This document shows, piece after piece, positions 24,987-30,847 of a stretch of DNA of 32,000 nucleotides. Source of the DNA: Mycolicibacterium smegmatis (GTDB lineage Bacteria; Actinomycetota; Actinomycetes; Mycobacteriales; Mycobacteriaceae); assembly GCF_001457595.1 (NCBI RefSeq), contig NZ_LN831039.1:480001-512000 (forward strand). The letters run 5' to 3'. How positions within the stretch are numbered: position 1 is the stretch's first letter; each line of letters begins with the position of its first letter. The position numbers were made by a program, and so were the translations under genes. The notes beneath the pieces were generated by a model. It did not search any database. It was given only the letters and a program-made list of their open reading frames with translations, and was not told the DNA's origin.

Positions 24987-25057
24987 GGGGCCCCACGCGC
25001 ATGCGACGATCGGCATAATCACCCCGAAATCGTCCTCGCTGAGGAAGGGTGGGCCCC

Positions 25058-26485
25058 ATGCGCGAATATCTCAAGTTCTACATCGACGGCCGCTGGGTGG
25101 ATCCGGCCGAGCCGCGGACCCTCGACGTCGACAACCCGACCACCGAGCAGGTCGCCGGGCGCATCGCGATCGGCGCGGCGGCAGATGTCGACGCCGCGGT
25201 CGAAGCGGCCCGCAAGGCGTTCACCACGTGGTCGCAGACCTCCCGCGACGAGCGCCTCGCGGTCCTGGGCGCGATCCTCGACGAGTACCAGAAGCGCGCG
25301 TCCGACCTCGCCGACGCGGTCAGTGAAGAGATGGGTGCGCCGGCATCGCTGGCCGCGGGTCCGCAGGTCAGGATGGGCCTGGGGCACCTCACCACGTCGA
25401 TCGAGGCGCTCAAGAAGTTCCAGTTCGAGGAGCAGTACGGCAGCACCCTGGTGGTCAAGGAGCCGATCGGTGTCTGCGGTCTCATCACGCCGTGGAACTG
25501 GCCCATCAACCAGATCGCGTGCAAGGTGTTCCCCGCGTTGGCCACCGGCTGCACCATGGTGCTCAAGCCGTCCGAGGTGGCCCCGTTCTCGGCGCAGATC
25601 TTCACCGAGATCGTCGACGCCGCAGGCGTTCCCGCCGGCGTGTACAACCTCGTGTACGGCGACGGTCCCGGCGTGGGCTCCGAGCTGTCGAGCCACCCCG
25701 ACATCGACATGGTGTCGTTCACCGGGTCCACCCGCGCGGGCATCGACGTGGCGAGGAACGCCGCGCCCACCGTCAAGCGCGTGACGCAGGAATTGGGCGG
25801 AAAGAGCCCCAACATCGTGCTGGACGACGCCGACTTCGCCAAGAGCGTGGCGGCAGGCGTATCGGCGATGATGACGAACAGCGGGCAGAGCTGCAACGCT
25901 CCTTCGCGCATGCTGGTGCCGAATTCCCGTATGGACGAGGCGATCACGATCGCTCGCGGGACCGTCGCAGCGGTGAAGGTCGGCGATCCGTCCGACAAGA
26001 AAGCGATCGGTCCGGTCGCGTCGAAGGCCCAGTTCGACAAGATCCAGGGGCTCATCCAGAGGGGCATCGACGAGGGCGCGACGCTCGTCGTCGGCGGCAC
26101 CGGGCGCCCCGACGGCCTCGACACGGGCTACTACGTCAAGCCGACGGTGTTCGCCGACGTCACCAACGACATGACGATCGCGCGGGAGGAGATCTTCGGC
26201 CCCGTGCTGTGCATCCTCGGCTACGAGGATCTGGACCAGGCCGTCGAGATCGCCAACGACACCGAATACGGCCTGGCCGGCTACGTCTCAGGCGCGGACC
26301 TCGAAACCGCGCGTGCCGTGGCCCGCCGCATCCGTGCTGGATCGGTCGCGATCAACCACGGATTCGATCTCAGCGCCCCGTTCGGCGGGTACAAGCGCAG
26401 CGGCAACGGACGCGAGTGGGGCCACTTCGGTTTCGACGAGTACCTCGAGACCAAGGCCGCGATGGGCTACGCGCCGCCACAGTAG
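25058..26485 (+). CDS. NAD(P)+-dependent aldehyde dehydrogenase
   Basis: 475 aa from ATG 25058 (GAGGAAGG SD 10 nt upstream). Catalytic motifs ELGGKSP and NSGQSCNAPSR (catalytic Cys), plus EEIFGPV. Confidence 0.92.
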   Translation: MREYLKFYIDGRWVDPAEPRTLDVDNPTTEQVAGRIAIGAAADVDAAVEAARKAFTTWSQTSRDERLAVLGAILDEYQKRASDLADAVSEEMGAPASLAAGPQVRMGLGHLTTSIEALKKFQFEEQYGSTLVVKEPIGVCGLITPWNWPINQIACKVFPALATGCTMVLKPSEVAPFSAQIFTEIVDAAGVPAGVYNLVYGDGPGVGSELSSHPDIDMVSFTGSTRAGIDVARNAAPTVKRVTQELGGKSPNIVLDDADFAKSVAAGVSAMMTNSGQSCNAPSRMLVPNSRMDEAITIARGTVAAVKVGDPSDKKAIGPVASKAQFDKIQGLIQRGIDEGATLVVGGTGRPDGLDTGYYVKPTVFADVTNDMTIAREEIFGPVLCILGYEDLDQAVEIANDTEYGLAGYVSGADLETARAVARRIRAGSVAINHGFDLSAPFGGYKRSGNGREWGHFGFDEYLETKAAMGYAPPQ

Positions 26486-26516: not shown

Positions 26517-28658
26517 CTACTCCGCGGGAGCGGGTGTCACGTCGGCACCGGAGCCCTTGATCGACGCTTTCGCGCGGTTCTCGGGCCGCACGGCCTTCTT
26601 GCCGCGCACGTAGCCGGTCTTGGAGATCGACGCCGCGAGCAGGGCGTCCTCGCCCTTGACGAACGGGTGGAACGCCACGCCGGCGCCTCCGCGGCCCTTG
26701 ACCGGGATGTCGGCGACTTCGGTGACCTTCCAACTCTTTTCGGCGATCGACAGGATGGCCTCGCCGTTGGCGCACGACACCGGCAGCGCGGCGATCACCT
26801 CGTCACCGTCGGCCGCGAGCTTCACCCCGGCCACACCGTTTCCGGCGACGCCCTGCGGGTTCACCGACGCCGGGTCGACACGCAGGATCTTGCCGCGCCG
26901 CGTCACGAGCGCCAGATGGTAGCCCTCCGGAAGCACACCCGAGCGCACCAGACCGGTGATGTCGGGCGCGACCGGGATGTCGCGGATCTTGAACGGCAGA
27001 CCGTTGCCGGTCGTGAACTTGATACGACCGTCGGACCACACAGCCCAGCCGAGCCCGGAGGTGAGCAGCTCACCGTGGCTGTCGGAGAACACCCCTCGGT
27101 CGTCGAGACGCCAGGCCGTGTTGACCTTGCGTTCGCGTGAACCGTCCTCGTCGCCGCGGGATACCGGCGTCGCGTCCAAGTCCAGCACGGTGCGCCGGTC
27201 GTACTCGGGGCCCTTGAACAGCTTCGCGGTCTCGACGAGTTCCTTGTCGATCACCTTGCGGCGGGACTCGGGGTTGGTCACCAGATCATTGAGTTCGGCG
27301 AACTCGGCGTCGAGCTTCTCGGCCTCGGCCTGCAGCTCGATGACGTCGAGTTTGGTCAGTCGCCGAAGTTGCAGCGACAGAACGTAATCCGCCTGCTCGG
27401 CGTCGATCTTGAACCGCTCCTGCAGGCCCTTGCGGGCCTCGTCGACGGTCTCGGAGCCGCGGATGACCGCGACGGCGGCGTCGATGTCGAGGTGGATCTT
27501 CATCAGACCGGCCACCAGATGGCGGCGCGCGGTGACCTTCTCCAGCCGGTATTCACTGCGGTGCAGCACCACCGAATCGCGCAGCTGGAGGAATGTCATG
27601 ATCAGGTCACGCACCGACCACCAGCGCGGTACGCGGTTCTCGTCGAGGGCCACCAGGCTCGCGGCGAAGGTGGATTCCAGCGGTGTGAGGGCGAGCAGTT
27701 GGTCGCGGATCTGTTCTGCGTTGTGGCCGCGCTTGGCGGTGACGACGATGCGCAGGCCGTTGCGGCGGTCGGTGAGGTCGGACATGTCCGCGACCCCCGA
27801 CATCTCGCCGGACTCGACGAGGGCACGGATGCGGTCCTGCACGGTGTTGCTCGCGACGCCGGGTGGCAGTTCGGTGATGATGCAGTTCTTGCCCTCGACC
27901 GAGATCGTGCCGCGCACGGTGAAATGCCCACGGCCGGTGGTGATGTACTCACGCAGCCCGGCCGTGCCCACCACACTCGCGCCGGACCCCCAATCGGGTC
28001 CGGGGATCAGCTTGCACAGCCGGTCGTCGGTCATGTTCGGCGTCTTCAGCAGCGCCCGGCAGGCCGCCATCACCTCGCGCGGATTGTGTGCGGGCACCTT
28101 GGTGGCCCACCCCTCGGCGATGCCGACGGCCCCGTTGCACAGCAGCACGGGCCACTGCGCGGGCAGCACGGTCGGCTCGATCCATTCGCCGTCGAACGTC
28201 GGCACCATCGGTACCGCGTGGTCGTTGAGTTCGGCGGTCAGCGCCGCGCCCGGTGCCGAGAGCCGCATCTCGGTGTACCGGTCGGCGGCGGGGATGTCGC
28301 CCTGGATGCGGGGGAACGCGCCTTGTCCGTCAATGACTTTCACGCGCTGGAAGTCCGCGGCCATCAGCGCCGCGGCGCCGTACATCGAGGCGCCGCCGTG
28401 GGGGTGCAGGTTGCCGGTGACCGCCGAGCACACCTTCGACGACTTCTGCGGTTTGTTGCCTGGCAGCAGTTTCGAGTCGTGCATCTGGTACAGCAGTCGA
28501 CGCTGACCGGGTTTGAGCCCGTCGTACGCCGACGGGATGGCGCGGTCGCTGACGCTGTAGAGCGCGAAGGTCAGTTGGTAGTGGTTCCAGTAGTCGTCGG
28601 CGCTCTGGTCGAGCACCAGATCGGGGTTCTGCTCGGGAACGTCCAGGGTGGCGGTCAC
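26517..28658 (-). CDS. Type IIA DNA topoisomerase subunit A, short GyrA/ParC-like paralog (TopoNM-like)
   Basis: 713 aa from GTG 28658 (GGAG 9 nt upstream). Catalytic Tyr context AADRYTEMRLS, QRDR-equivalent HPHGGASMYG, a coiled-coil region and only ~210 aa of C-terminal beta-pinwheel-like sequence. Lies 11 nt downstream of the GyrB-like gene. Confidence 0.9.
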   Translation of the reverse strand: MTATLDVPEQNPDLVLDQSADDYWNHYQLTFALYSVSDRAIPSAYDGLKPGQRRLLYQMHDSKLLPGNKPQKSSKVCSAVTGNLHPHGGASMYGAAALMAADFQRVKVIDGQGAFPRIQGDIPAADRYTEMRLSAPGAALTAELNDHAVPMVPTFDGEWIEPTVLPAQWPVLLCNGAVGIAEGWATKVPAHNPREVMAACRALLKTPNMTDDRLCKLIPGPDWGSGASVVGTAGLREYITTGRGHFTVRGTISVEGKNCIITELPPGVASNTVQDRIRALVESGEMSGVADMSDLTDRRNGLRIVVTAKRGHNAEQIRDQLLALTPLESTFAASLVALDENRVPRWWSVRDLIMTFLQLRDSVVLHRSEYRLEKVTARRHLVAGLMKIHLDIDAAVAVIRGSETVDEARKGLQERFKIDAEQADYVLSLQLRRLTKLDVIELQAEAEKLDAEFAELNDLVTNPESRRKVIDKELVETAKLFKGPEYDRRTVLDLDATPVSRGDEDGSRERKVNTAWRLDDRGVFSDSHGELLTSGLGWAVWSDGRIKFTTGNGLPFKIRDIPVAPDITGLVRSGVLPEGYHLALVTRRGKILRVDPASVNPQGVAGNGVAGVKLAADGDEVIAALPVSCANGEAILSIAEKSWKVTEVADIPVKGRGGAGVAFHPFVKGEDALLAASISKTGYVRGKKAVRPENRAKASIKGSGADVTPAPAE

Positions 28659-28669
28659 GTGAAAGTCTC

Positions 28670-30703
28670 CTACGTCAGGTCCAGCGCGGAGGTGTCGACA
28701 CGGGCGGCGACATCGGCCATCCACGTGCGCCGGCCCTCCGGCGGTCCGCCGAACAACGTGTGGTGCAGCTTCTTCTCGCTCTCATCGGGGCGCACCCGAA
28801 TCACCGTGCGGCGCTGCGGATCCAGCACGGTGTTCCAGAAGTCGTCGGCGTCCATCTCACCGAGACCCTTGTTGCGCTGTACCTCCACGCGTCGGTTGGA
28901 GGACGCCTTCAACTGGGCCACGGCCGCGTCGCGTTCGGACTCGTCCTGGCAGTAGATCCGCTCGTCGCCTGCCTTCACCACGAACAGCGGCGGCATGGTC
29001 ACGTACACCATCCCGGCTTCGACGAGCGGACGGTAGAAGTCCAGGAACATCGAGATCAGGCTCGAGTTGATGTTGCCACCGTCGGGGTCGGCGTCGGAGG
29101 CGAACAGGATCCGGTCGTACCGGCACAGTTCCGGGTCGCAGTGGTCGCGCACGCCGCAGCCCAGGATGCGCTCGATCGCGTCGAACTCGTCTTTGGCCCG
29201 CGCCTTGTTCAACGGGAAACCGTAGACGTTGGGCGGCTTGCCTTTCAGCGGGAACGCGGCCTGGAACGTCGCGTCGCGCGCGGCCTTGATGGTGCCCAGA
29301 GCCGAATCGCCCTCGCAGAGGAACAGTTCGGCGCCCGAACCACGGCCCGACTCGCGGCTGGGCAGCAGCTTGGGCGGCAGCGACAGGTTGGTACCGAGAC
29401 CTTTGGCCTTCGATGCCGCACGGGCGCGGGCCTTGGCGCCCTCGGCGCTGCGGCGGGCGCGCGCGGACTCCAGTGCCAGCTTGCTCCACAGCGTCACGGT
29501 GTCGGCGTTGGCGGGGTTGGCCGCCCAGATCGTCACGCTGCGCGCCACATCCGGGGCCATCGCCAGGTTCAGCGAGCGCGACGACACCGCGGTCTTGGCC
29601 TGCGAATCCCACGCGACGTCCGGTGCGCGGGTGTCCACGGCCAGTGCGGTCACGGCCGCGAAATCCTGTGGTTCCGGGCCTTCTTCGTTCTTGGCCAGGC
29701 CCAGATCGCGCATGCGGGACGCGCGCTCGGCCAACGCCTCGGACAGACCCTTGATCGCGGCGGTCAGGTGCGATCCGCCGCCGGGTGTGCGCACGGTGTT
29801 GCAGAACGCGGCGACCGTCGCCGGTTCGGCCGGTCCGGCCGTCAGCGACCAGCGGAACGGGGTCGGTCCGCGGCCCGTGGTGTACTCGCCGCGGCCTTCC
29901 ACGACGGCGCGGACCTCGGGCAGGGGAGTGCCCGCCGCGGTGCACATGAGGTCCAGCAGGGTTTCGGTGCCCCACGGCCCGCTGAACGGTTCGAGCACCG
30001 CCGGCGGGACCTCTTCGCCGGGCCAGCCCTCGTCGACGACGACCAGGTGCACGCCGGGCGACATCCGCGCCGCGGCGTGTGCGCGCAGCAGCACCTCGCC
30101 GATGTCCAGGGTCGAGTCCGGCGCGATCGCAGGGTCGAACAGGATGCGCACCTCGGTGCCGTGCAGGTCGGGCTTGCGGTTGCTGACGCCGCGCAGTTTC
30201 TGGGTGTCGTTGCGGGTGAACGGGGCCTCCGGGTCGAACTCCTTGCCCTCGAACACGCCCGGATAACCGCGGCCGAAGCTCTGCAGAAAGGTCTTGCCGT
30301 CACGGCGCACCGTGACGTCGGTGCGCGCGGAGATGAACACCGCGGCCGCCGCGCCGATGCCGTTGAGGCCGGCGCCGGTGCTGGTGGCGTCCTTGTGCGC
30401 GGAGAACTTGCCGCCGGCGCGGGCTGTGCCCAGCGTCTTGACGATGCCGTTCTTCCCGGTGGTCGGGTCGGTGTCGACGGGCAGGCCGCGGCCGTCGTCG
30501 GCGACGCTGACCGAACCGTCGGCGTGCAGGGTGATCGTGACGGTCGACCCGCCGTGGCCGGGATCGGCGACCTCCTCGATCGCGTTGTCGACGATCTCGC
30601 GCAGGGCGGTGTTGAGCACGTCGAGGCCCAGGTTCACCGCCGGCCGCAGCCGCGTGTGCTGGACATCGTCGAGCTCGGTGATGTCTGCGGCGGTGTAACT
30701 CAC
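28670..30703 (-). CDS. Type IIA DNA topoisomerase subunit B, GyrB/ParE-like paralog (TopoNM-like)
   Basis: 677 aa from GTG 30703 (GGAGAG 8 nt upstream); an in-frame ATG 30766 is an alternative start. GHKL motifs EIVDNAIEE, DDGRGLP and GLNGIG; QTK-loop-like SQAKTA; Toprim motifs CEGDSA and SDADPDGG. Confidence 0.9.
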   Translation of the reverse strand: MSYTAADITELDDVQHTRLRPAVNLGLDVLNTALREIVDNAIEEVADPGHGGSTVTITLHADGSVSVADDGRGLPVDTDPTTGKNGIVKTLGTARAGGKFSAHKDATSTGAGLNGIGAAAAVFISARTDVTVRRDGKTFLQSFGRGYPGVFEGKEFDPEAPFTRNDTQKLRGVSNRKPDLHGTEVRILFDPAIAPDSTLDIGEVLLRAHAAARMSPGVHLVVVDEGWPGEEVPPAVLEPFSGPWGTETLLDLMCTAAGTPLPEVRAVVEGRGEYTTGRGPTPFRWSLTAGPAEPATVAAFCNTVRTPGGGSHLTAAIKGLSEALAERASRMRDLGLAKNEEGPEPQDFAAVTALAVDTRAPDVAWDSQAKTAVSSRSLNLAMAPDVARSVTIWAANPANADTVTLWSKLALESARARRSAEGAKARARAASKAKGLGTNLSLPPKLLPSRESGRGSGAELFLCEGDSALGTIKAARDATFQAAFPLKGKPPNVYGFPLNKARAKDEFDAIERILGCGVRDHCDPELCRYDRILFASDADPDGGNINSSLISMFLDFYRPLVEAGMVYVTMPPLFVVKAGDERIYCQDESERDAAVAQLKASSNRRVEVQRNKGLGEMDADDFWNTVLDPQRRTVIRVRPDESEKKLHHTLFGGPPEGRRTWMADVAARVDTSALDLT

Positions 30704-30847
30704 TGCTCGTTCTCTCCAAAAAGTGGGGTGGTGTGCCGGTGGAATGGTAGACGCCGGATCAGACATCACCGCGCATCTGCGCTGCAACCTGCGATGTGAT
30801 CTGCCGCGATACGTACGGAAGTGGTCCAGACCACAGCCACCTGTCAG

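What the first reader, a model, noticed from the sequence alone, without database searches (positions are those of the whole stretch)
28377..28406. QRDR of the GyrA-like subunit naturally carries quinolone-resistance-type residues (HPHGGASMYG)
Seen in sequence: minus-strand codons CAC CCC CAC GGC GGC GCC TCG ATG TAC GGC encode HPHGGASMYG. Canonical GyrA reads HPHGD-(S/A)-(A/S)-(V/I)-Y-D; from memory, E. coli has HPHGDSAVYD and M. tuberculosis has HPHGDASIYD. The acidic residue equivalent to E. coli D87 / M. tuberculosis D94 is Gly here, and the preceding conserved Asp (D82/D89) is also Gly. D94G is a classic clinical fluoroquinolone-resistance substitution in M. tuberculosis, because that acidic residue anchors the water-metal-ion bridge. 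Inference: this paralog should be intrinsically poorly sensitive to fluoroquinolones. It could therefore act as a drug-insensitive backup, or as a self-protection-type target paralog.
Basis: partly seen in the sequence, partly recalled or inferred. Interest (0 to 1): 0.7.

Follow-up and report, generated by a model that had tools for sequence, protein, structure and literature searches.

The report
TopoNM: known quinolone-insensitive mycobacterial topoisomerase
The stretch is the drug-binding helix of TopoM, the GyrA-like half of the extra topoisomerase TopoNM of Mycolicibacterium smegmatis; it does lack the residues that quinolones need, but this enzyme's poor quinolone sensitivity is cited from a 2005 study, so the finding is correct and not new.

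Summary
Window 28377-28406 (minus strand) encodes HPHGGASMYG. HMMER aligns it without gaps to HPHGDASIYD of M. tuberculosis GyrA. The D89/E. coli D82 and D94/E. coli D87 positions are therefore Gly, and the Ser83 position is Ala.

The gene is not an unknown paralog. The 713-aa GyrA-like protein and the 677-aa GyrB-like protein encoded 11 nt upstream are exact matches to NCBI records of Mycolicibacterium smegmatis. The flanking genes are those of strain mc2155. This is TopoNM (TopoN/TopoM, MSMEG_0457/0456), described by Jain and Nagaraja in 2005.

Later papers citing that work report about 40-fold less fluoroquinolone inhibition than for gyrase, and reduced coumarin sensitivity.

The "backup or self-protection" idea is not supported:
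- Wild-type mc2155 carries TopoNM yet has a ciprofloxacin MIC of 0.25 ug/ml.
- A gyrA D94G mutation raises that MIC to 1 ug/ml.
- No biosynthetic cluster flanks the genes.

Smaller additions from this work:
- Gly at the D87 position is kept in 200 of 200 mycobacterial orthologues.
- The NBTI anchor residues D82 and M120 are both replaced.
- TopoN carries Lys at the GyrB N538 position.
- The cassette occurs in at least 240 species genomes and on one megaplasmid.

Interest is low.

The parts
26517..28658 (-). topoM (MSMEG_0456-type): the GyrA-like subunit of TopoNM, 713 aa, GTG start, stop codon included
   Evidence: Pfam finds DNA_topoisoIV (1e-110) and one DNA_gyraseA_C blade. The protein scores below every NCBIfam gyrA/parC cut-off. 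The exact sequence is an NCBI M. smegmatis record and is 712/713 identical to ULN35890.1. The gene call is the same in public assemblies.
28377..28406 (-). The finding itself: helix-alpha4 / QRDR core HPHGGASMYG (H85-G94). G89 is the E. coli D82 / Mtb D89 position, A90 is the S83 / A90 position, and G94 is the D87 / D94 position.
   Evidence: sequence; ungapped alignment to Mtb GyrA HPHGDASIYD; conservation.
28269..28289 (-). Active-site motif AADRYTE (A124-E130). R127 and the catalytic Y128 are kept. D126 sits at the E. coli M120 position.
   Evidence: All seven residues are invariant in the 42-sequence alignment.
26679..26699 (-). KGRGGAG loop in the last blade of the short C-terminal domain (about 200 aa). 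It is GyrA-box-like. No such motif occurs in the first blade.
   Evidence: It aligns to 'qgrggkg' of the Mtb GyrA C-terminal domain (domain 2). Only one Pfam blade is detected.
28659..28669 (-). 11-nt spacer between the topoN stop and the topoM start. The Shine-Dalgarno sequence taGGAGa overlaps the stop codon, so the two genes form a coupled operon.
   Evidence: The same 11-nt gap appears in public gene calls. The pair is adjacent in 80 of 81 loci.
28670..30703 (-). topoN (MSMEG_0457-type): the GyrB-like subunit, 677 aa, GTG start preceded by GGAGAG. An in-frame ATG at 30766 is a less likely start.
   Evidence: Pfam finds HATPase_c, DNA_gyraseB, Toprim and DNA_gyraseB_C. The protein scores below the NCBIfam gyrB/parE cut-offs. 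The exact sequence is an NCBI M. smegmatis record. Start context is shown.
29186..29194 (-). TopoN residues K-D-E at the Mtb GyrB N538-T539-E540 positions (N499-T500-E501 in the 675-aa numbering). Lys therefore sits at the site of the N538K substitution.
   Evidence: and the alignment. The motif is conserved as KDEF in the orthologues. The effect of N538K in M. tuberculosis is reported in PMC3386181.

Best explanation
The window is a piece of the Mycolicibacterium smegmatis chromosome. The two minus-strand genes at 26517-30703 are topoN and topoM. They encode TopoNM, the known 'atypical' third kind of bacterial type IIA topoisomerase, alongside gyrase and topo IV.

TopoM keeps everything needed for DNA cleavage: the HPHG turn, R127 and Y128. 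Its helix alpha4 has lost both protein anchors of the fluoroquinolone water-metal-ion bridge. The Ser83 position is Ala90 and the acidic residue four positions later is Gly94. The preceding Asp (E. coli D82) is Gly89.

Fluoroquinolones bind bacterial type IIA enzymes mainly through that bridge. The drug-enzyme-DNA complex should therefore be poorly stabilised on TopoNM. This is the most likely reason for the reported roughly 40-fold lower fluoroquinolone inhibition of this enzyme.

Shown here: the identity of the genes, the residue equivalences and their conservation. Taken from the literature: the reduced drug sensitivity and the bridge mechanism. Inferred: that G89, A90 and G94 are the cause.

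The residues are best read as a lineage trait of an old, divergent topoisomerase family. They are not an adaptation to quinolones, and they do not make the cell resistant.
For: Identity:
- The exact TopoM and TopoN sequences are M. smegmatis records, and the neighbouring kinase is the mc2155 protein AFP36926.1.
- TopoM is 712/713 identical to ULN35890.1.
- MSMEG_0456 is annotated as gyrase A and MSMEG_0457 as topo IV B.
- Orthologues at 86-90% identity are named 'topoisomerase subunit TopoM'.

Residue mapping:
- The alignment to Mtb GyrA is ungapped.

Mechanism from the literature:
- The bridge is anchored by Ser83 and the acidic residue four positions later. Mtb has A90, and A90 and D94 mutations disrupt the bridge (PMC10006343).

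Phenotype from the literature:
- TopoNM is 40-fold less inhibited by fluoroquinolones than gyrase (PMC9769811).
- It has reduced fluoroquinolone and coumarin sensitivity (PMC8084294).

Constraint:
- Gly at the D87 position occurs in 200 of 200 orthologues.
- H85-G88, M92-G94 and A124-E130 are invariant.
- dN/dS is 0.10 for TopoM and 0.12 for TopoN.

Further drug-site divergence in the same pocket:
- The D82 and M120 positions, both NBTI contact residues, are G89 and D126 (PMC12647645).
- TopoN has Lys at the GyrB N538 position.
Against: - The primary paper (PMID 16313624) is not in the library. The '40-fold' figure and the drug profile are second-hand. I could not see whether the authors had already pointed to these residues.
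- No Gly-to-Asp revertant has been tested, so causality is inferred.
- Gly at the D87 position also occurs in 10 of 118 canonical GyrA/ParC representatives. The residue alone does not define the family.
- More distant TopoM-like proteins carry D, Q or S at the D82 position and D, E, L, T or Q at the D87 position.
- The placement on helix alpha4 rests on sequence alignment only. The AlphaFold model was unusable, with a mean pLDDT of 54.7.
Confidence: 0.85

Rival explanations
1. One reading: TopoNM is a drug-insensitive backup enzyme, or a self-protection copy of the target. On this view it is kept because it lets the cell survive gyrase-directed antibiotics.
For: - The enzyme is reported to be less sensitive to both fluoroquinolones and coumarins.
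- Several drug-contact positions differ at once: the D82, S83, D87 and M120 positions in TopoM and the N538 position in TopoN.
- Soil mycobacteria live among producers of gyrase inhibitors (general knowledge).
Against: - mc2155 carries TopoNM and still has a ciprofloxacin MIC of 0.25 ug/ml. A gyrA D94G mutation raises it to 1 ug/ml, so gyrase sets the phenotype.
- Quinolones act as poisons, so a sensitive gyrase is dominant over a resistant second enzyme (established knowledge). The same logic appears in the dual-target MIC table of PMC12647645.
- TopoNM makes positive supercoils, not negative ones, so it cannot substitute for gyrase.
- No biosynthetic cluster lies in the window or in the next 8 kb.
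- The flanks of 81 loci have no conserved partner genes. Only 8 ORFs of 1000 aa or more occur in them, and only two of those belong to the same gene cluster.
- Its transcripts fall in biofilm and rise on regrowth together with replication genes (PMC12702967).
Confidence: 0.07
2. The Gly residues are incidental. The low quinolone sensitivity of TopoNM comes from other differences, such as the overall DNA-gate geometry, the TopoN Toprim region or the enzyme's different DNA handling. Restoring Asp would then change little.
For: - TopoM is only about 35-40% identical to GyrA/ParC in the N-terminal domain.
- TopoN also differs at the GyrB drug-pocket positions, with KDE in place of NTE.
- 10 of 118 canonical enzymes carry Gly at the D87 position.
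- Distant family members vary at both positions.
Against: - In M. tuberculosis gyrase, which already has Ala at the Ser83 position, the single change D94G is enough for high-level resistance and loss of drug-induced cleavage.
- The same change, plus loss of D89, in a homologous and gaplessly aligned helix is the simplest cause.
Confidence: 0.15
3. TopoNM is a mobile-element or virus-derived topoisomerase. Its real role would be plasmid or mobile-DNA maintenance, or defence, as reviews have speculated. Its odd drug site would simply reflect that foreign origin.
For: - Reviews propose a viral origin and a link to the M. smegmatis condensin-like plasmid-defence system.
- A TopoN-TopoM pair at 86-88% identity sits on a 437-kb mobilizable plasmid of M. 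intracellulare subsp. chimaera.
- The cassette's flanks differ widely between species.
- Two TopoM lineages about 75% identical to each other both occur under the name M. fortuitum.
Against: - No close phage homologue exists. All phage hits are below 37% identity and are GyrA/ParC- or T4-like.
- GC content of the genes (0.68-0.69) matches the flanks.
- dN/dS is about 0.1 across at least 80 species.
- No defence or mobility genes are consistently adjacent.
- PADLOC was not run.
Confidence: 0.1

Closest known systems
[quoted passage not shown]
   Same: It is the same enzyme. The window proteins are exact M. smegmatis sequences in the mc2155 gene neighbourhood. Both share the two-gene GyrB-like then GyrA-like layout. 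The published properties are ATP-dependent relaxation, decatenation, positive supercoiling, and reduced fluoroquinolone and coumarin sensitivity.
   Different: Nothing differs at the level of the protein. The window strain differs from ULN35890.1 by one residue (T355A). What this analysis adds is the residue-level rationale, its conservation, and a much wider distribution than 'only M. smegmatis'.
DNA gyrase GyrA, especially the fluoroquinolone-resistant M. tuberculosis mutants D94G, D89N/G and A90V
   Same: The fold and catalytic motifs are the same. The helix-alpha4 sequence is homologous and even carries the same residue numbers. TopoM looks like a natural 'A90 + D89G + D94G' allele.
   Different: - TopoM scores 452 against a cut-off of 902 (NF004043) and 436 against 877 (TIGR01063).
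- The C-terminal domain is short (about 200 aa) with one detectable blade and no GyrA-box in the first blade.
- The enzyme is reported not to introduce negative supercoils.
Topoisomerase IV ParC/ParE
   Same: Both are heterotetrameric type IIA enzymes that relax and decatenate DNA. Database records often name the TopoM protein 'topoisomerase IV'.
   Different: - TopoM scores below the parC and parE cut-offs (344 against 813; 318 against 629).
- Positive supercoiling has been reported for TopoNM only.
- Canonical ParC keeps Ser/Thr and Asp/Glu at the bridge positions.
Eukaryotic topoisomerase II (quinolone-insensitive because the Ser and acidic anchors are absent; from memory, Met762 and Met766 in human II-alpha)
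   Same: The logic is the same: a type IIA enzyme that lacks both bridge anchors and is naturally poorly targeted by antibacterial quinolones. Some metagenomic TopoM relatives are single-chain TopoN-TopoM fusions, like topo II.
   Different: Eukaryotic topo II is only a remote relative (E about 1e-13). It has different residues at the sites and a different domain layout at the C-terminus.
Self-resistance target duplicates of antibiotic producers (for example, the second gyrB of aminocoumarin-producing Streptomyces; from memory)
   Same: Both are a second, drug-insensitive copy of a topoisomerase in an actinobacterium.
   Different: Those copies sit in or next to the biosynthetic cluster and replace the sensitive subunit of gyrase itself. 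Here there is no cluster, both subunits are separate from gyrase, and the cell stays drug-sensitive.

Membership tests
TopoNM (atypical type IIA topoisomerase of M. smegmatis) | Sequence identity with the M. smegmatis TopoM and TopoN proteins | tested here: met
   The exact 713-aa and 677-aa sequences are NCBI M. smegmatis records. TopoM is 712/713 identical to ULN35890.1. The flanking kinase is mc2155 AFP36926.1, and the aldehyde dehydrogenase cluster holds mc2155 AFP36923.1, which brackets the two genes. MSMEG_0456 is annotated as gyrase A and MSMEG_0457 as topo IV B. That MSMEG_0456/0457 is TopoNM rests on my own knowledge and on the 'TopoM' names carried by orthologues.
TopoNM (atypical type IIA topoisomerase of M. 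smegmatis) | Two adjacent co-oriented genes, the GyrB-like one upstream of the GyrA-like one, separate from gyrBA | tested here: met
   Domain content is shown. An 11-nt spacer contains the Shine-Dalgarno sequence. The pair is adjacent in 80 of 81 loci.
TopoNM (atypical type IIA topoisomerase of M. smegmatis) | A lineage distinct from gyrase and topo IV | tested here: met
   All NCBIfam gyrA, parC, gyrB and parE models score at roughly half their cut-offs or less, apart from the generic NF004044 subfamily model (496.4 against 654). In the 1.84-billion-protein search, full-length collinear matches (418-783 bits) stand apart from canonical GyrA hits that match the N-terminal domain only (388 bits or less). 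No formal tree was built.
TopoNM (atypical type IIA topoisomerase of M. smegmatis) | ATP-dependent relaxation and positive supercoiling activity | not testable with these tools
   Literature only. The catalytic residues (E/N/D of the ATPase, EGDSA, DxDxD, R127-Y128) are present.
TopoNM (atypical type IIA topoisomerase of M. smegmatis) | [quoted passage not shown] | not testable with these tools
   Literature only and second-hand. The sequence is consistent for quinolones. For coumarins, the usual GyrB contacts (the E. coli D73, R76 and R136 positions) are retained, so that part is not explained by sequence.
DNA gyrase subunit A (GyrA) | Passes the curated equivalog model | tested here: not met
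   NF004043 scores 452 against 902, and TIGR01063 scores 436 against 877.
DNA gyrase subunit A (GyrA) | A six-bladed C-terminal domain with a GyrA-box (QRRGGKG-type) in the first blade | tested here: not met
   The C-terminal domain is about 200 aa and only one Pfam blade is found. The only RGG motif is KGRGGAG, in the last blade. Blade number could not be counted because the model was poor.
Topoisomerase IV subunit A (ParC) | Passes the curated equivalog model | tested here: not met
   TIGR01061 scores 344 against 813, and TIGR01062 scores 318 against 629.
Self-resistance target paralog of an antibiotic producer | Located in or beside a biosynthetic gene cluster for an inhibitor of that target | tested here: not met
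   The neighbours are a sensor kinase and response regulator, a hydrolase, MmpS/MmpL, TetR, an aldehyde dehydrogenase, GntR/K/P, MFS-Usp, MarR and OsmC. No partner gene is conserved across the 81 loci.
Self-resistance target paralog of an antibiotic producer | Confers drug resistance on the cell | not testable with these tools
   The literature argues against it. mc2155 has a ciprofloxacin MIC of 0.25 ug/ml despite TopoNM, and gyrA D94G raises it to 1 ug/ml.

The most novel reading that the evidence does not exclude
TopoNM's whole DNA-gate drug pocket is divergent. The quinolone bridge anchors, both NBTI anchors (the D82 and M120 positions) and the GyrB N538 position all differ. The two-gene cassette is mobile among environmental mycobacteria: its flanks vary, a copy sits on a megaplasmid, and two lineages occur within one named species. 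The most novel reading not excluded is that the cassette spreads as a poison-proof decatenase or relaxase. It would keep replication or large plasmids going when natural gyrase poisons are present, even though it gives no benefit against synthetic quinolones in standard MIC tests.
Probability: 0.08. Interest if true: 0.5.

Novelty: already known. Interest (0 to 1): 0.15.

Why it matters
It matters little as a discovery. The enzyme, its separate status and its poor quinolone sensitivity have been in the literature since 2005. The cell it sits in is quinolone-sensitive regardless.

The work still has some uses:
- It gives a residue-level reason for a known biochemical property. The helix reads like a natural A90 / D89G / D94G version of the M. 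tuberculosis numbering.
- It predicts that the newer NBTI drugs should also miss this enzyme.
- It corrects a statement still repeated in reviews up to 2024, that TopoNM exists only in M. smegmatis. Close relatives are in at least 240 species-level genomes and on a plasmid from a clinical M. chimaera isolate.

That last point is relevant to anyone using M. smegmatis or other fast-growing mycobacteria as surrogates in screens for topoisomerase inhibitors.

Tried and rejected
1. Reading the primary paper (PMID 16313624). It is not held, so the drug data are second-hand.

2. Finding the M. smegmatis orthologue through homology lists. Two searches did not list it by name. It was finally identified through cluster membership and exact look-up.

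3. AlphaFold2 model of TopoM from a 42-sequence alignment. Mean pLDDT was 54.7 and pTM 0.36, with the N-terminal 190 residues below 50. The model was unusable, so no fold search was run, and the blade count of the C-terminal domain is unresolved. Deeper family members from the representative search could not be fed to the predictor.

4. My first guess that TopoN had lost the coumarin-contact Arg (E. coli R136). This was rejected. The HMMER alignment places an Arg there ('vrRdgk' against 'ikRdgy'). Coumarin insensitivity is therefore not explained by the classic residues.

5. Self-protection reading. Pfam scans of the window genes and public gene calls of the next 8 kb found no biosynthetic genes.

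6. Conserved neighbour search over 82 loci. None was found. A UvrA-like paralog lies near the cassette in only 9 loci.

7. Phage origin. No phage hit exceeds 37% identity.

8. Names for distant family members. All are unnamed metagenomic proteins.
Full report
**The observation**

Window 28377-28406 on the minus strand reads CAC CCC CAC GGC GGC GCC TCG ATG TAC GGC, which is HPHGGASMYG. It lies in a long, GC3-rich minus-strand ORF.

Public gene calls and the alignment of homologues place the start at the GTG at 28658, giving 713 aa. In this numbering the motif is H85-G94.

phmmer against all PDB chains gives GyrA and ParC structures at E = 1e-89 to 1e-61. It aligns 'hphgGAsmyG' without gaps to 'hphgDAsiyD' of M. 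tuberculosis GyrA. The equivalences are:
- G89 = Mtb D89 = E. coli D82
- A90 = Mtb A90 = E. coli S83
- G94 = Mtb D94 = E. coli D87

The E. coli numbers rest on established knowledge and on the statements quoted. The active-site motif AADRYTE, with R127 and Y128, follows at the normal distance.

**What the gene is**

Pfam finds the DNA_topoisoIV domain (1e-110) and a single GyrA C-terminal blade. The ORF immediately upstream has the four GyrB domains. Both proteins score far below all NCBIfam equivalog cut-offs for gyrA, parC, gyrB and parE.

The two genes are separated by 11 nt, and a GGAG overlaps the upstream stop codon. The GyrB-like gene most likely starts at the GTG at 30703, which is preceded by GGAGAG, giving 677 aa as in public gene calls.

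Homologues at 73-96% identity are all from Mycolicibacterium and related genera. A few carry the name 'topoisomerase subunit TopoM'.

The decisive step was the exact-sequence look-up:
- The window's 713-aa and 677-aa proteins are NCBI records of Mycolicibacterium smegmatis.
- The divergently transcribed sensor kinase is the mc2155 protein AFP36926.1.
- The aldehyde dehydrogenase cluster contains mc2155 AFP36923.1.
- TopoM is 712/713 identical to another M. smegmatis strain and 97% identical to M. goodii.

In M. smegmatis, MSMEG_0456 is annotated as gyrase A and MSMEG_0457 as topo IV B. The window therefore carries TopoNM itself, the atypical type II topoisomerase of Jain and Nagaraja (2005).

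**What is already known about it**

I could not read the 2005 paper. Papers that cite it state the following:
- TopoNM relaxes DNA, decatenates it and introduces positive supercoils.
- It is distant from all other type IIA enzymes.
- It is '40-fold less' inhibited by fluoroquinolones than gyrase (PMC9769811).

**How it most likely works**

[quoted passage not shown] The bridge is anchored by the Ser83-position residue and the acidic residue four positions downstream. M. tuberculosis gyrase has Ala at the first anchor, and mutations at A90 or D94 disrupt the bridge (PMC10006343). D94G gives MICs of 2-8 ug/ml across four fluoroquinolones (8 ug/ml for ciprofloxacin, ofloxacin and levofloxacin) in a clinical isolate (PMC3386181).

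TopoM has Ala at the first anchor and Gly at the second, so no protein anchor remains. That this causes the measured insensitivity is an inference. It is the simplest one, and I put it at about 0.75 given the enzyme's identity.

Two further differences lie in the same pocket:
- The D82 and M120 positions, which are the contact residues of NBTI drugs (the D82N and M120K mutants each lose more than 500-fold inhibition; PMC12647645), are G89 and D126 in TopoM.
- TopoN has K-D-E where Mtb GyrB has N538-T539-E540. N538K alone raises fluoroquinolone MICs about fourfold in M. tuberculosis.

The catalytic and ATPase motifs of TopoN are intact: EGDSA, PLKGK, DxDxD, and the E. coli E42, N46, D73, R76, K103 and R136 positions. 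The coumarin insensitivity is therefore not explained by the classic contacts.

**Conservation**

- In 80 species-level genome loci the motif is HPHGGASMYG (74 loci) or HPHGGTSMYG (6 loci).
- In 120 database proteins it is GGA(A/S)MYG or GGT(A/S)MYG in 117, and GSTAMYG in 3.
- Gly at the D87 position is therefore invariant, and Asp never occurs at the D82 position.
- In a 42-sequence alignment, H85-G88, M92-G94 and A124-E130 are invariant.
- dN/dS against 78-81 orthologues has a median of 0.10 for TopoM and 0.12 for TopoN.

A full scan of 1.84 billion representative proteins shows about twenty more distant clusters that are collinear over the full length (36-53% identity). Some are single-chain TopoN-TopoM fusions of 1377-1427 aa. 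In these clusters the two positions vary: D, G, Q or S at the first, and G, D, E, L, T or Q at the second.

Among the 118 full-length (600 aa or more) GyrA/ParC-like representatives in which the HPHG motif was found, the D82 position is never Gly. The D87 position is Gly in 10. The double-Gly helix is therefore a trait of the mycobacterial TopoM clade, not of the whole family.

**Why the 'backup or self-protection' reading fails**

- M. smegmatis mc2155 carries TopoNM, yet its ciprofloxacin MIC is 0.25 ug/ml. A gyrA D94G mutation raises it to 1 ug/ml (PMC8007378). Gyrase therefore decides the phenotype, as expected for poisons whose sensitive target is dominant (established knowledge).
- TopoNM is reported not to make negative supercoils, so it cannot replace gyrase.
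- The neighbourhood is ordinary chromosome:
  - Downstream lie genes for NirB, a HemD-type regulator, MFS transporters, PxpBC-type carboxyltransferases, agmatine deiminase, permeases, OsmC, MarR, GntP/K/R and an aldehyde dehydrogenase.
  - Upstream lie a two-component system, a hydrolase, MmpS/MmpL and TetR.
- GC content does not differ from the flanks.
- Transcripts of both genes fall in biofilm and rise on regrowth together with replication genes. This fits a growth-linked DNA-topology role.

**Distribution**

Reviews say TopoNM is absent from related bacteria or 'found so far only in M. smegmatis'. The data here disagree:
- Close relatives were confirmed in 240 species-representative genomes, including Mycolicibacter and Millisia.
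- A TopoN-TopoM pair at 86-88% identity lies on a 437-kb mobilizable plasmid of M. intracellulare subsp. chimaera.
- The pair is always together, but its flanks differ strongly between species.
- No close phage relative exists.

This leaves open some horizontal movement of the cassette, which I did not resolve.

**Verdict**

It is unsupported on biological role. Novelty: already known. Interest: 0.15.

Noticed in passing
window 26517-30703; loci L001-L080: Reviews up to December 2024 state that TopoNM occurs only in M. smegmatis. However, 240 species-representative genomes hold close relatives, mostly Mycolicibacterium but also Mycolicibacter and Millisia. The TopoN-TopoM pair is adjacent in 80 of 81 loci.
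   Followed up: partly
L081 (NZ_CP012886.2, 194409-198581): A TopoN-TopoM pair at 86-88% identity to the window sits on a 437-kb mobilizable (MOBP) plasmid of M. intracellulare subsp. chimaera AH16 from sputum. It is surrounded by hypothetical genes.
   Followed up: partly
L001-L081 flanks: The cassette's flanking genes are poorly conserved between species. The window's own neighbours (GntR/K/P, aldehyde dehydrogenase) recur in only 5-9 loci. A UvrA-like paralog lies nearby in 9 loci.
   Followed up: partly
proteins P0096 and P0380 (both named M. fortuitum); Two TopoM lineages differ in their identity to the window (about 88-90% against about 75%). Both occur under the same species names in the M. 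fortuitum complex. This suggests either paralogy or horizontal exchange.
   Followed up: no
proteins P0123, P0133, P0141 (metagenomic): Distant family members are single-chain fusions of a TopoN-like and a TopoM-like half (1377-1427 aa), like eukaryotic topo II. One cluster has 25 members on contigs of up to 227 kb.
   Followed up: no
window 29186-29194 (-) and the TopoN ATP-lid region: TopoN has Lys and Asp at the Mtb GyrB N538 and T539 positions. In the ATP lid, the E. coli Y109 and H116 positions are Thr and Asn. The coumarin contacts D73, R76 and R136 are kept, so the reported coumarin insensitivity is unexplained by sequence.
   Followed up: partly
window 26517-27100 (-), TopoM C-terminal domain: The C-terminal domain is only about 200 aa, with one Pfam-detectable blade. 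A GyrA-box-like KGRGGAG lies in the last blade rather than the first. This could bear on the reported positive supercoiling, but the AlphaFold model was too poor to count the blades.
   Followed up: partly
clusters of P0041 and P0042: Two '90% identity' database clusters mix 677-aa TopoN-type and 711-712-aa TopoM-type proteins. This is probably a clustering artefact, perhaps bridged by read-through or fused gene calls, and not biology.
   Followed up: no
window 25043-26485 (+) versus mc2155: The window's aldehyde dehydrogenase is an M. smegmatis sequence (CKG93949.1) but not the mc2155 one (AFP36923.1). The sensor kinase is identical to that of mc2155. The window therefore seems to come from a non-mc2155 M. 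smegmatis strain.
   Followed up: no
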